Assembly (NCBI GenBank): GCA_030390025.1
Contig: CM059436.1
Span: 37,386,001 to 37,450,000, forward strand
Reading direction: 5' to 3'
Length of the DNA: 64,000 nucleotides
Origin: Squalus acanthias
Lineage: Eukaryota
Numbering within the stretch: position 1 is the stretch's first letter; each line of letters begins with the position of its first letter. The position numbers and the translations under genes are program-made. Under the pieces are notes generated by a model. The model was not told the origin of the DNA. It saw only the letters and a program-made list of their open reading frames with translations, and searched no databases. Of this stretch, positions 10,327 through 40,441 are shown piece by piece.

Positions 10327-10825
10327 CGGTTGACTTTCTCATGGCTGAAGGGTTGATAACGAGAGGGCACAGATTTAAGGTGATTGGCAAAAGAACCAGA
10401 GGTGACATGAGGAAAAACTTTTTTACGCAATGAGTTGTTAGGATTTGGAATGCACTGCCTGATAGTGTGGTGGATACAGATTCAATTGTAGCCTTCAAAA
10501 GGGAATTGGATAAATACTTGAAGGGGAAAAAAATGTAGGGATATGAGGAAAGAGTGGGGAGTGGGGCTAACTGGGATTGCCCTTCGAATGAGCCGGTGCA
10601 GATCAATATTCCCCCTAATTTTTTATTCTAGATGTGCGCCCCTTTAGGGGGCTGTGTGGCCCATTCACAGTTTCACGCATGCATGAAATTTAACATTAGA
10701 AAAGCTGGTCCCGGGCTGCGCGGGGCCAGCAGAGACCTGTGGCTGCGCAGCCTAGAGGGAACATTGGTGCAGACTCCATGGGCTGAATAGCCTCCTTCTG
10801 TGCTGTACTAGTCTGTGATTCATAT
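10327..10825 (+). mobile_element. CR1 3' fragment interrupted by a MITE
   Basis: AEGxxTRGHRFK-type coding end and tail GGGCTGAATAGCCTCCTTCTGTG. Confidence 0.8.
10604..10766. mobile_element. hAT-type MITE
   Basis: TIRs CAATATTCCCCCTA / TAGAGGGAACATTG; 8-bp TSD GTGCAGAT / GTGCAGAC. Confidence 0.8.
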
Positions 10826-25326: not shown

Positions 25327-25444
25327 TCCATACAGTTGCAAAGAATCTCCTTGCATTCTGATCTACATCCCTGATGGTCATACCAAGGAAATGCCAACCT
25401 CTGGTTCCAAGGAGAAGAGTAAACTTGATGCAGTTAAAAAAGTG
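25327..25444 (+). CDS. EPRS1: EPRS1 exon (17), end of GluRS
   Basis: 118 bp; [30 protein letters not shown]. Confidence 0.94.
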
Positions 25445-28750: not shown

Positions 28751-28969
28751 GACAAAGTAGATGAAGCTGTAAAGTTGCTTCAAGCATTGAAAGCTGAGTA
28801 CAAGCAAAAGACTGGCCAGGAATATAAGCCTGGTAATGTACCATCATCAGCTTCAAGTGCTGCCTCTCTTCCATTAACTTCAAGTAGTTTGGACAACAAA
28901 GCTTTGTATGACAAGGTTTCTGAACAAGGAGAGTTGGTCCGAAAACTCAAAACAGAAAAAGCTCCTAAG
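28751..28969 (+). CDS. EPRS1: EPRS1 exon (19a): second half of WHEP2 and first half of WHEP3
   Basis: 219 bp, phase 0-0; [22 protein letters not shown]...[15 protein letters not shown]. Confidence 0.93.
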
Positions 28970-32276: not shown

Positions 32277-32504
32277 GATAAGATAGATGAAGCAGTAAAA
32301 GCACTTCTAGCCTTAAAAGTGGAGTATAAACAGAAGACTGGTGAAGAGTACAAACCAGGGAAGCCACCTGGTGCTGCGGCAGTGCCAGCAACTGCAGCCA
32401 TGATCTCTACAGAAGCACCAGGATTTGATGAGAAAGCACTACACAGCAAGGTGGCAGAACAAGGAGAAGTTGTACGCAAACTTAAAGCAGAGAAAGTTTC
32501 TAAG
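32277..32504 (+). CDS. EPRS1: EPRS1 exon (19b): second half of WHEP3 and first half of WHEP4
   Basis: 228 bp, phase 0-0, pyrimidine tract plus CAG/GTAAC; DKIDEAVKALLALKVEYKQKTG...QGEVVRKLKAEKVSK. Confidence 0.9.
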
Positions 32505-36326: not shown

Positions 36327-37367
36327 AATTAAATAAATCTGTTGGACTATAACCTGGTGTTGTGCGACTTCTGATTTTTGTCCACCCCAGTCCAACGCCG
36401 GCATCTCCACATCATGACCTTCATAAATAGAGGCATTGAGTACAAAAGCAAGGAAGTTATGATGAACCTTTATTAAACACTGGTTCGGTCTCATCTAGAG
36501 TATTGTGTCCAATTCACGGCACCGCACTTTAGGAAGGATGTGAAGGCCTTACTAAGGGTTCAGAAAAGATTTACAAGAATAGTTCCAGGGATGAGGGACT
36601 TCAGTTATGTGGATAGACTGGAGAAGCTGGGGTTGTTCTCCTTAGAGCAGAGAAGGTTGAGAGGAGATTTGATGGAGGTGTTCAAAATCATGATGGGTCT
36701 CGACAGAGTAAATAGAGAGAAACTGTTCCCATTGGCGGAAGGGTCGAGAACCAGAGGAGACAGATTTAAGGTGATTGGCAGAAGAACCAAAGGCGACATG
36801 AGGAAAAACCTTTACGCAGAGAGTGGTTAGGATCTGGAATGTACTGCCTGAAAGGGTGGTGGAGGCAGATTCAATTGTGGCTTTCAAAAGAGAATTGGAT
36901 AAGTACCTGAAGCAAAAAAAATTTGCATGGCTGCGGGGGAGTGGGACTGGCTGAAGTGCTCTTGCAGAGAGCCGGCACGGGCTTGACGGGCCGAATGGCC
37001 TACTTCTGTGCTGTAAGCATTCTATGATTCTATTCTATTCTATGATCCAAGTGTTTTGGCAACCTTTTCCTAGTGAGCTGGAGTCAGTTTACCAGTCTCA
37101 GTCAGAAAGGCTGAAGCACACTGCTTGAGCAGATTAGAGGGAGTTTTACTTTGCACCTAACTACAGTGATCCTGCATGGAAAAAGCCTCTCTTCCCCAGC
37201 CCGAGCAAACATTTGTGTAATATTAGATATTCCAGTTTTGGATGCCTATAAATTAGTGTGCAGTATACTTTCATGCAGTGGGCAATTAGTTAACTTCCTT
37301 GTTGCATGTTCCAAATTTGGTTTTGTTTTCCTTCTCATAACCTCCACTCCCCAATTAATTTCTCCAG

Positions 37368-37621
37368 GGGATAATAGATGCTGCTGTCGCCTTGCTCCTT
37401 GATTTGAAGTGCCAGTATAAAGCTCTAACAGGAATGGAATATAAACCGGCTGCAGGGAGTGATGACAAGAACAAAAACAAAAAAGAGAAACAGAACAAAT
37501 CTGAGAAGCAGAATAAGTCTGAAAAACCTGAAGGGCAGAAGAAAGATGCAGCAAAAGAACAGGAGATGGGATTAAGCAATGGAGGTGCAGGAGAAGGGCA
37601 GGGGCCGAAGAAACAAACCCG
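37368..37621 (+). CDS. EPRS1: EPRS1 exon (20): second half of WHEP4 and basic linker
   Basis: 254 bp; [22 protein letters not shown]...[13 protein letters not shown]; donor GTGAGC. Confidence 0.93.
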
Positions 37622-37626
37622 GTGAG

Positions 37627-37762
37627 CAATGTTCCCTCTAATTTTTTGTTTTGTGCGCGTTCCCTTTAACTGGCTGCGCGACCCATTCAAATTTTCGCTC
37701 ATGCGCGATTTCTTCAATTTAAAAGCTGCTGAGCACGGCTGCATAGCTTAGTGGGACTGTTG
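37627..37762. mobile_element. hAT-type MITE inserted in an EPRS1 splice donor
   Basis: Left TIR CAATGTTCCCTCTA, decayed right TIR TAGTGGGACTGTTG; perfect 8-bp TSD CCGGTGAG; same family as 10604-10766. Confidence 0.85.
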
Positions 37763-38519
37763 CCGGTGAGTAAGTATTAAGACAAATTCAGCAAGGTTGT
37801 GCTCCTAAGAGTGGAACCTTGCTAGACAAGAGCCTGAGTTGGAAATAAAGCAAGGCACCTTAGTCTCCATTGTCTAATTCATGCTCCCGTCTAACCGTCA
37901 ATCTGAAAACCTTGCCAAACAGGCAGTCACATCAGTCAGCCTGGGAGTGACTAATGTCAGTCTGAGAGATCAGAGATTGGGAGCACATCCTTGTGAAATT
38001 TGTCCAATATTGTGACTGAGTTTTGGATTTCATTTTTTTTCTTTTGCAGATACTGATTCTGTTAAAGCCCTAAATAATTGGCGCATGAATTATATTTCTG
38101 CACGCACATTTATATACATTTTTAAACGGCCATACATTTCTTGGCCAGAGGTAGGGAGTGGGGAGAATACGAACGTATGATATTGTGGCACTTCTGAAAT
38201 TTGAAATAACTTAAATGTTTAATTTCTGTAATCTAATTCTTAAGTTTTTTTTAAAACTTTTTTTGCTCTCATGAAAGTGCTGAAGAATGGAATGTTTACT
38301 ACATTTGCTCCCAATTGTCAGCAGAAATTATTGGGTAAAGCACAGGCCAGGTGCTGAGTAAAGCTCCCTCTATTCTGCCTCAACAATGCACCTAAGCCCC
38401 AGCCTGAGAGCACCAGTGTCAGTTTTATTTTTCACTTTCTACACTGAGCATTTTTATAGTCTCTATAATTGAGATTTCAGATTGTGGACAGCTTTATGCT
38501 GTAGATTTCCAACCACTAC

Positions 38520-38635
38520 GAATTTGCAGGGCTATGGGGAAAGAGCAGGTGGAGTGGGACTAATTGGATAGCTCTTTAAAAGAGCAGGAATAGGCATGAT
38601 GGGTTGAATGGCCTCGTTCTGTGCTGTATGATTCT
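38520..38635 (+). mobile_element. CR1 3' tail fragment
   Basis: TTGCAGGGCTATGGGGAAAGAGCAGG...GAATGGCCTCGTTCTGTGCTGTATGATTCT. Confidence 0.7.
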
Positions 38636-39070
38636 GAAATGGTGCTGCTCAAAATAATTTCACGTAGTCTGTATAGACAGCAGAAGAGAAGCCATTTTCC
38701 TGTCCTGTGACTGGCTGGACTGGGGTTTGGGTTCTAAAGGTGAAAGAACATTATACTGTACGAACCCACTGTGTCCCTGAGGTCCCTGTAATCTCAAATA
38801 TCTAATACATTGATTAGATGTGTACATTTATATTGGCTAATATACTTGTAAATTATCTGTGGCATTTCCCTTAGTCTCGGGGTCTGGGAGTTTTGGCGGC
38901 ATTTTTAATAATATGTATGGATACCTTAAAGGCATAGATTTGACGAGTTTGAAGACTCGTCTGACATTTAGCCTATGTAGTCTAAATGGAGAACATGAAA
39001 TATGGGGTTGGTTCAATTATTAATGTATGTTCTTGTTTGTTGATTTTAAATGATGTGATCTTGTTTGCAG

Positions 39071-39122
39071 ATTGGGCCTAGAGGCTAAAAAAGAGGAGAA
39101 TCTAGCAGAGTGGTATTCACAA
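39071..39122 (+). CDS. EPRS1: EPRS1 exon (21), start of ProRS
   Basis: 52 bp; LGLEAKKEENLAEWYSQ. Confidence 0.94.
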
Positions 39123-40441
39123 GTAAGTGTGCGTTTTTTCAAAAGCCTTTTTGGATCATTTGTATTTGAATTGTTAGTGAAATACATGTTTATTTCAATT
39201 TAGCTATAAATTGATAGCACTTTCTGGAAAGTAACCACAATAGTATAAACATTTACATTTTTTAAAGGGAAGAAAGTTCCAGATTGAATACCTTTCTGTT
39301 CAAAGTAGCCCCTGAATCATCATGTCTGAAAGAAAAAGTGACAAAAATACGTATGACCCATATAATAACTTTACCATTTTAGTAACCTTTCTAGGCTAAT
39401 AGATACTTACCTTTCTGGATCTTTTCCCCTCTTCTGGTAGCATCACTGACTGTGGGAGGAATTACCTGTGTCCAGAACAGCTCCATCCCTTTCAATGGTG
39501 GTTACAACTCCAGACGAGCCCAAGAACTGATCAGGGGGTTGTCTGACCCTAAAAACCTCTACCAGCTGGGTGAAGCTGCATGCCCAGGCTGTTAGAATAT
39601 TGTCCTGTGGCCAGTCCAAAGTTGCTGCACCCATTCAATAAATGAAGCTGCTCTGGGATGCATGTGGCTCCTCACGGTCAGTGATCCGTACAATGGAAAG
39701 ACCCAAAATGGTGGGAGCCTGTGAGCAGTAATTACAGTCGTGATAGTCTTTGATATGGATATCATTGTTCATCAACCAGGTGGAGCATCCTAATTGTTGG
39801 TATCTGCCATAATGTCTTTTAACTTTACTCTCATGGTTTATGATATCATCTGCAACCATTCATGTCTTGTAATCAGTTCTCCTTATCCATTATTTAATGT
39901 GTTTTTTCTATATACTGATAACATGCATATACTGTAAACTGGTCTGAAACATTTGGGTGTTTGATAACACTGCTTCAGAAAAAAGTACCCCAGTTAGCCA
40001 CAGGTTCTAAATATTGCGCTGTTGCTTTATCGAGCAATTCAACTTGTGCTATAAAATTTTTTCCATGAAATATTTAGTGAAGTTTTTGAGTACAATTTTC
40101 TTCAATATTATGACTCATAAATTAAACTGTTTAAACTTCGCTTTAAACATTTTAATTCTAAATTGTCACAATGTACAAAGTTATAATAGCTACTTTAAAT
40201 TCGTTTTGACTTGCACAGCAGAATTTATTTATGCCCTCTCAAAGTTGCTGCAACCATTGAATGAAACGAGCGAAGCTGCTTTGGGATGCATGTGACTTCT
40301 CACCATCTTTATTTTCATGACGACTTTCTCTATTGCTTTTCTGCCCCTCTTTTCCCCTCCCCCAATCTTCCTTGTCCTTCCCTTTCTGGCTTTAAGTTGA
40401 TGTTTACCAGTTCTAGGTTTACAGGAGAGAGAGATCATTTT

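What the first reader, a model, noticed from the sequence alone, without database searches (positions are those of the whole stretch)
37619..37775. MITE target-site duplication copied the EPRS1 splice donor at the WHEP-linker/ProRS boundary
Seen: the 8-bp TSD CCGGTGAG spans the exon/intron junction. The proximal donor now reads CCG/GTGAGC. The downstream copy, 144 nt later, keeps the original and closer-to-consensus CCG/GTGAGT, with an overlapping GTAAGT. Reading past the proximal donor gives CGG TGA, so splicing at the distal donor ends the protein at ...GPKKQTR. That product is GST-GluRS-4xWHEP without any ProRS. Established: a truncated human EPRS form (EPRS-N1) antagonises GAIT repression. 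Inference: the TE created a competing donor that could give either an NMD-sensitive poison isoform or a standalone GluRS-WHEP protein from an essential fused synthetase.
Basis: partly seen in the sequence, partly recalled or inferred. Interest (0 to 1): 0.7.

Follow-up and report, generated by a model that had tools for sequence, protein, structure and literature searches.

The report
Shark transposon duplicated EPRS1 splice donor
A small jumping DNA element landed just inside an intron of a shark's EPRS1 (Glu/Pro-tRNA synthetase) gene and duplicated the splice signal, but the RNA assemblies checked all splice at the normal exon end, so the spare signal is likely a silent, ordinary leftover rather than a switch.

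Summary
A 136-bp hAT-type MITE (37627-37762; 2,586 exact copies of its left end in this shark genome) sits five bases into an EPRS1 intron. Its 8-bp duplication CCGGTGAG leaves CCG/GTGAGC at the exon end and CCG/GTGAGT 144 nt downstream, behind an in-frame TGA. In 7 of 7 RNA-type contig sets laid (2 studies) the only junction is the normal 37621-39071; none lists a junction from 37765 or 37769. Contigs drop rare forms and NMD would hide them, so a small leak is not excluded. A better-scoring unused donor within 200 nt occurs in 6 of the gene's 24 other introns. About 0.4-0.8 such hits on a donor are expected by chance for this family. A DNA run about 96% alike carries the same insertion. The predicted product is unlike EPRS-N1, which has two WHEP repeats and arises by polyadenylation. 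Best reading: a tolerated insertion that left a latent 5' splice site. The scan noted the same kind of event on other DNA before (two unchecked notes).

The parts
37368..37621 (+). EPRS1 coding exon (254 nt): second half of the last WHEP repeat and the linker up to ...GPKKQT
   Evidence: covered by spliced contigs
37619..37626 (+). Left copy of the 8-bp target-site duplication CCGGTGAG, spanning the exon/intron border (-3 to +5)
37619..37627 (+). Used 5' splice site CCG/GTGAGC; the +6 C is the element's first base
   Evidence: joint 37620-39070 read as GT..AG (cut +1) in 7 of 7 RNA-type runs
37623..37625 (+). In-frame TGA met on read-through; part of the GTGAG donor itself, so it would predate the insertion
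   Evidence: age inferred
37627..37762 (+). 136-bp non-autonomous hAT-type element (MITE), with an internal deletion against the 163-nt family majority; 8/104 non-CpG and 8/32 CpG positions changed
37627..37641 (+). Left terminal inverted repeat CAATGTTCCCTCTAA
37726..37734 (+). Remnant (CTG/CTGAGC) of the donor-like CCG/GTGAGC that most family copies carry internally; GT lost here
   Evidence: GT also lost in 4 of 21 other aligned copies, so not exceptional
37748..37762 (+). Right terminal inverted repeat, decayed (3 changes from the family form; 11 of 15 complementary to the left repeat, counted by eye)
37763..37771 (+). Right copy of the duplication (37763-37770), forming the latent donor CCG/GTGAGT
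   Evidence: no joint from it listed
37770..37775 (+). Overlapping GTAAGT, a +4 donor (TGA/GTAAGT), weak at 2.4 bits
37844..37849 (+). Single AATAAA in the intron; relevant only to the intronic-polyadenylation rival
   Evidence: about what chance gives in 1.45 kb of AT-rich DNA (own estimate)
39071..39122 (+). Next exon, start of ProRS (R|LGLEAKKEENLAEWYSQ)

Best explanation
A hAT-type MITE inserted five bases into this EPRS1 intron and duplicated the -3 to +5 part of the donor; the cell splices at the upstream copy, and the downstream copy is likely a latent 5' splice site with no function. Shown: the element, the duplication, and splicing at 37621 in all RNA-type contig sets laid. Inferred: the insertion was survivable because the duplication rebuilt the donor except for +6 (T to C). 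The upstream site likely wins because it comes first, keeps the exon's own context and gives a 254-nt rather than 398-nt exon. Any rare use of 37765 or 37769 would put a stop 140 nt before a junction and would be removed by NMD as splicing noise.
For: Joint 37621-39071 is the only RNA joint at this intron in X1, X2, X3 (depth 193, 334, 99) and X4, X6, X7, X8 (186, 92, 355, 467): 7 of 7 runs laid, 2 studies. Contigs as shallow as 2.1-2.6 were listed in these data (table 8). 6 of the other 24 introns have an unused donor within 200 nt that outscores the real one on the gene's own matrix (3 of 24 by consensus count), 13 of 24 within 1 kb. In human genes 57% of coding introns have a latent donor within 1 kb, 91% of them behind a stop (PMC3510495 passages). 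With tandem donors of equal strength the first is favoured (PMC6783452 section 7). Expected hits of this family on a real donor: 0.4-0.8 (with a recalled figure of 2e5 donors). 12 of 2,586 copies have a donor-like duplication, and by eye only this one abuts a recognisable coding exon. A perfect duplication is common in the family (8 of 22 others). All 13 annotated shark EPRS1 isoforms listed are 1430-1515 aa.
Against: The data are assembled contigs, which drop rare forms, and NMD lowers any stop-bearing isoform, so usage in nascent RNA is not measured. The downstream site scores higher, and the same paper says the stronger site tends to dominate when strengths differ. One run (X2) has a contig that leaves the exon at 37621 and reads into the element (37592-37704, depth 7.4 against 334); its rest is unlike this locus, so it cannot be assigned. 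The matrix rests on 24 donors and is crude. The 13 isoforms come from other sharks that may lack the insertion, and a truncated form might cluster apart.
Confidence: 0.8

Rival explanations
1. Regulated or stress-activated poison isoform: the downstream donor is used at a meaningful rate in some tissue or under stress, and NMD of the product tunes EPRS1 levels.
For: The downstream donor is intact and scores higher. The stop lies 140 nt before the new junction with 7 more junctions downstream in the window. Latent donors can be activated by heat shock and are then NMD targets in human cells (PMC3510495). The insertion is shared with a relative about 96% alike (X9). X2 has a read-through contig.
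Against: No such joint in 7 of 7 runs. Nothing sets this site apart from the gene's other latent donors. An intact 8-mer is expected about 35% of the time at this divergence and is seen in 8 of 22 other copies, so there is no sign of selection.
Confidence: 0.14
2. A stable stand-alone GluRS-WHEP protein is made, by NMD escape or by intronic polyadenylation at the AATAAA at 37844 after read-through of the weakened donor, and acts like human EPRS-N1.
For: The stop falls exactly at the linker/ProRS border. One AATAAA lies 220 nt behind the stop. Truncated EPRS forms exist in human cells (PMC10618286, PMC4371305).
Against: The TGA is part of the donor itself, as in many phase-2 GTGAG introns, so its position needs no explanation. 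N1 has two WHEP repeats and is made in the coding region. The residue matching Ser999, the key GAIT phosphosite, is Asn here by ungapped comparison with a 1512-aa bat protein (equivalence inferred). No truncated shark isoform among 13 listed.
Confidence: 0.04
3. The 8-bp repeat is a chance match or an assembly error and no insertion occurred.
For: No empty site was seen, and this copy's right TIR is decayed.
Against: High-copy family with TIRs and 8-bp duplications. An independent DNA run spans both ends of the element at this place (X9 records 25 and 28).
Confidence: 0.01

Closest known systems
Latent 5' splice sites (suppression-of-splicing literature; PMC3510495, passages read)
   Same: Consensus-like intronic donor less than 1 kb behind the real one, scoring as well or better, preceded by an in-frame stop, not seen in ordinary RNA.
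   Different: Here the origin is traceable: it is the former donor sequence displaced by a transposon duplication. Stress activation is untested in sharks.
Non-autonomous hAT elements / MITEs (superfamily traits recalled: short TIRs, 8-bp duplication)
   Same: 15-bp TIRs, 8-bp duplication, T at target position 2 and A at position 7 in 16 of 21 copies each, no coding capacity, thousands of copies.
   Different: No autonomous partner with the same ends was found in 25 of 150 hAT-domain loci looked at; no family name could be assigned with these tools.
Introners: transposons whose duplication supplies a splice site (PMC11282704, passages read)
   Same: A splice signal is co-opted from the target-site duplication of a MITE-like element.
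   Different: Introners land in exons and create a new intron. This element lies inside an existing intron, creates none, and is removed with the old intron.
Human EPRS-N1 (via PMC4371305 and PMC10618286, passages; the primary paper PMC3615456 was not held)
   Same: An N-terminal EPRS piece without ProRS.
   Different: N1 is an observed stable product with two WHEP repeats, made by polyadenylation within a Tyr codon. The product here is hypothetical, would keep four repeats and the linker, and would be an NMD target.

Membership tests
hAT-type MITE | Terminal inverted repeats | tested here: met
   Right TIR found within 4 mismatches in 28 of 30 loci; decayed in this copy
hAT-type MITE | 8-bp target-site duplication | tested here: met
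   Perfect here; at most 1 mismatch in 19 of 22 independent other copies
hAT-type MITE | Short, non-coding, high copy number | tested here: met
   136 bp, stops or no usable frame; 2,586 exact left ends
hAT-type MITE | Autonomous hAT transposase element with the same ends | tested here: inconclusive
   150 PF05699 matches in the genome, 25 loci checked; 2 held MITE-like sequence, which in L056 reads as a whole nested copy with its own duplication. The hAT label rests on recalled superfamily traits.
Latent 5' splice site | Consensus-like GT donor within 1 kb behind the real donor | tested here: met
   CCG/GTGAGT at +144, 7/9 matches, 6.7 bits
Latent 5' splice site | In-frame stop between the real and the latent donor | tested here: met
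   TGA 37623-37625
Latent 5' splice site | Not used under ordinary conditions | tested here: inconclusive
   Only the normal joint in 7 of 7 runs, but contigs cannot prove absence
Latent 5' splice site | Activation under stress | not testable with these tools
   No stress or NMD-blocked reads offered
Poison isoform (splicing coupled to NMD) | Stop more than 50-55 nt before a downstream junction | tested here: met
   140 nt; rule from established knowledge
Poison isoform (splicing coupled to NMD) | The unproductive junction is observed | tested here: not met
   Not listed in 7 runs; limit of contig data applies
Poison isoform (splicing coupled to NMD) | Conservation beyond neutral expectation | tested here: inconclusive
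   Element shared with one ~96% relative; no change listed at 37763-37775 but 43 rows were cut; a perfect copy is common by chance
EPRS-N1 | Made by polyadenylation inside a coding Tyr codon | tested here: not met
   The stop here is a genomic TGA in the donor
EPRS-N1 | Holds only the first two WHEP repeats | tested here: not met
   Would hold all four and the linker
EPRS-N1 | Stable protein that counters GAIT repression | not testable with these tools
   No protein data; Ser999-matching residue is Asn (inferred alignment)
Introner | Insertion into an exon that creates a new intron | tested here: not met
   The junction peptide is the conserved ...KKQTR/LG(L/I)EA... of the vertebrate homologues; the element lies inside the intron

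The most novel reading that the evidence does not exclude
The transposon gave a lineage of sharks an off-switch for the ProRS half of EPRS1: under stress or in some tissue the displaced donor (or intronic polyadenylation behind it) is used, yielding either a regulated NMD isoform or a free GluRS-4xWHEP protein, in effect a conditional un-fusing of the synthetase.
Probability: 0.08. Interest if true: 0.6.

Novelty: new member of a known kind. Interest (0 to 1): 0.15.

Why it matters
As it stands it is a clean textbook case of how a transposon can land on a splice site of an essential gene and be tolerated, because the target duplication rebuilds the signal. It is also a natural two-donor experiment: identical from -3 to +5, differing only at +6 and in position, with the first site winning although the second scores higher. 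It would matter more only if the spare donor proved to be switched on, since that would let a transposon control the ProRS half of a fused essential synthetase.

Tried and rejected
No listed run is on record as RNA; X1-X8 are guesses, treated as RNA here only because their contigs join across the GT..AG intron. Lack of cover at 37757-37838 in the RNA-type runs is not used as evidence. MaxEntScan was not available; a consensus count and a 24-donor matrix were used instead. The first baseline used a wrong donor at 25441, counted ties and included the focal intron; one search corrects this and is the one cited. Folding of 37600-37790 gave z = 0.27: no support for a structure that hides or joins the donors. 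Loss of the element's internal donor as a sign of selection: rejected, 4 of 21 other copies lost it too. L056 as the parent transposon: rejected on reading the sequence, it is a nested copy. No related genomes are held, so the empty site could not be sought. A paper search for EPRS + alternative splicing + poison exon found 0 papers; searches listed nothing on a duplication-copied donor by title or abstract start. These searches cover only the open library. PMC9617928 gave no sequence around Ser999.

Full report
Setting. The window (G000:C12:37386001-37450000, genome of 3.7 Gb) holds 26 exons of EPRS1 on the + strand, which join to a stop-free frame of 1,355 residues. The closest proteins to the exon in question are from sharks: Mustelus 83%, Chiloscyllium 78%, Cetorhinus 76%. 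The exon 37368-37621 ends in ...GPKKQT with a split Arg codon (CG|A), and the exon 39071-39122 begins the ProRS part.

The observation. The 8-mer CCGGTGAG stands at 37619-37626 and 37763-37770. The upstream donor reads CCG/GTGAGC, the downstream one CCG/GTGAGT with GTAAGT four bases on. Read-through meets TGA at 37623-37625.

The element. The 136 bases between the copies belong to a large family: 2,370 candidates, 40 scored, at 82-91% identity for the others, and 2,586 exact matches to the 19-nt left end against 1 control match. Of 30 loci fetched, 28 have a recognisable right TIR. Leaving out this copy and 5 tandem-array duplicates, 19 of 22 have an 8-bp duplication with at most one mismatch, 8 of 22 a perfect one. 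Targets prefer T at position 2 and A at position 7 (16 of 21 each). TIRs with an 8-bp duplication mark the hAT superfamily (recalled). No autonomous partner was found among 25 of 150 hAT-domain loci. This copy differs from the family majority at 8 of 104 non-CpG and 8 of 32 CpG positions and has an internal deletion, so it is not recent. Run X9, which behaves as DNA of a relative about 96% alike, has contigs across both ends of the element at this place (37200-37678 and 37669-38547). The insertion therefore predates that split. The empty site was not seen.

Which donor is used. Seven of the eight RNA-type runs offered were laid. In each the only joint at this intron is 37620-39070, read as GT..AG with the cut one base to the right, that is 37621-39071. 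Depths are 193, 334 and 99 (X1, X2, X3) and 186, 92, 355 and 467 (X4, X6, X7, X8). They come from two studies, and the exon matches the window with 0-1 differences. No joint from 37765 or 37769 is listed. Contigs of depth 2.1-2.6 appear in the same data, which would be about 0.5-3% of the normal joint, but assemblers drop rare forms and NMD would lower this one, so this is no measured ceiling. Against my reading: X2 has a contig that starts 30 nt before the donor and reads into the element (37592-37704, 4 differences, depth 7.4), then continues unlike this locus. It is most simply unspliced RNA joined to another family copy, since X2 also reads through the next donor (39104-39270, depth 2.4) and X1 has intronic contigs at depth 2.6-4.4. 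Use of the downstream donor cannot be excluded as its source.

How unusual is a spare donor. The downstream site scores higher: 7 against 6 of 9 consensus matches, 6.7 against 4.9 bits on a matrix from the gene's 24 other donors; the +4 site scores 2.4. But 6 of those 24 introns also have an unused donor within 200 nt that outscores the real one (3 of 24 by consensus count), and 13 of 24 within 1 kb (8 of 24 by count), nearly all behind a stop. In human genes 57% of coding introns have such a site within 1 kb and 91% of these lie behind a stop; they stay unused in normal cells, and some are activated by heat shock and then degraded by NMD (PMC3510495, passages). In a designed library the first of two equal donors was favoured, though the stronger tended to win when they differed (PMC6783452, section 7). 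Landing on a donor is also not surprising: 0.4-0.8 hits are expected for 2,586 copies, with a recalled figure of 2e5 donors. Twelve copies have a donor-like duplication, and by eye only this one adjoins a coding exon. Intactness of the downstream 8-mer is expected about 35% of the time. The loss of the element's internal CCG/GTGAGC here is matched in 4 of 21 other copies. Neither points to selection.

Mechanism. Shown: insertion, duplication of -3 to +5, splicing at the upstream copy. Inferred: the allele survived because only +6 changed (T to C). The upstream site likely wins by order, exonic context and exon length (254 against 398 nt). Any use of the downstream sites would leave a stop 140 nt before a junction with seven more junctions in the window, a standard NMD target (established rule).

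The EPRS-N1 parallel. N1 holds the first two WHEP repeats and is made by polyadenylation after UA of a Tyr codon, giving a stable mRNA (PMC4371305 and PMC10618286, passages; the primary paper was not held). The product proposed here would keep four repeats and the linker and would not be stable by that route. The residue matching Ser999, the key GAIT site, is Asn in this shark by ungapped comparison with a bat protein numbered like the human one (inferred). Thirteen annotated shark isoforms are all 1430-1515 aa. One route to a stable product remains, polyadenylation at the AATAAA at 37844, but a single hexamer in this intron is what chance gives.

Comparison and verdict. The site works like, and on the tested features is, a latent 5' splice site whose origin happens to be visible. 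It borrows the introner principle of a splice signal from a duplication (PMC11282704, passages) but makes no new intron. A search for EPRS with alternative splicing and poison exon found no paper in the open library. Two unchecked notes of this scan describe the same outcome for retroelements at donors in other genomes. Novelty: new member of a known kind. Interest 0.15. The boldest reading left open, a stress- or tissue-switched shut-off of the ProRS half, I put at 0.08.

Noticed in passing
window 28751-28969: An extra WHEP-bearing exon, 68% alike at DNA level to the exon 32277-32504, in frame with GT-AG ends, gives this shark four WHEP repeats; the three shark proteins checked and the elephant shark (PMC4072531) have three. 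The X1 contig holds 846 nt before 37368, which equals the four-repeat exon sum plus 30 nt, a weak hint that the exon is included.
   Followed up: partly
window 37726-37734 and family copies L002-L030: The family's internal sequence contains CCGGTGAGC, the same 9-mer as the donor it rebuilt here, so most copies carry a ready donor on one strand. The match to this target site is probably coincidence.
   Followed up: partly
window 10604-10766: A second, more diverged relative of the same MITE kind in another EPRS1 intron, with TIRs and a near-perfect 8-bp duplication (GTGCAGAT/GTGCAGAC).
   Followed up: no
window 25441-25444: Tandem donors AAA/GTG/GTAAGA three bases apart at the end of the GluRS part; shark isoforms X1/X2 differ by 7-10 residues in length, possibly near here.
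   Followed up: no
window 32544 and 32598: Two donor-like sites 40 and 94 nt behind the exon end at 32504 that outscore the real donor and have no in-frame stop before them.
   Followed up: no
window 37470: In run X1 one contig joins at 37470, just behind an AG, with at least 255 letters before it that were not found in the window; seen in one run only, possibly a chimera.
   Followed up: partly
L003, L004, L006, L007, L008, L013 (G000:C5:73.4-74.2 Mb): Six near-identical copies of the MITE with the same flanks, so the element sits inside a unit that was amplified in tandem or segmentally on C5.
   Followed up: no
L056 7419-7845: A copy of this MITE kind is nested at the end of a broken hAT transposase gene.
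   Followed up: partly
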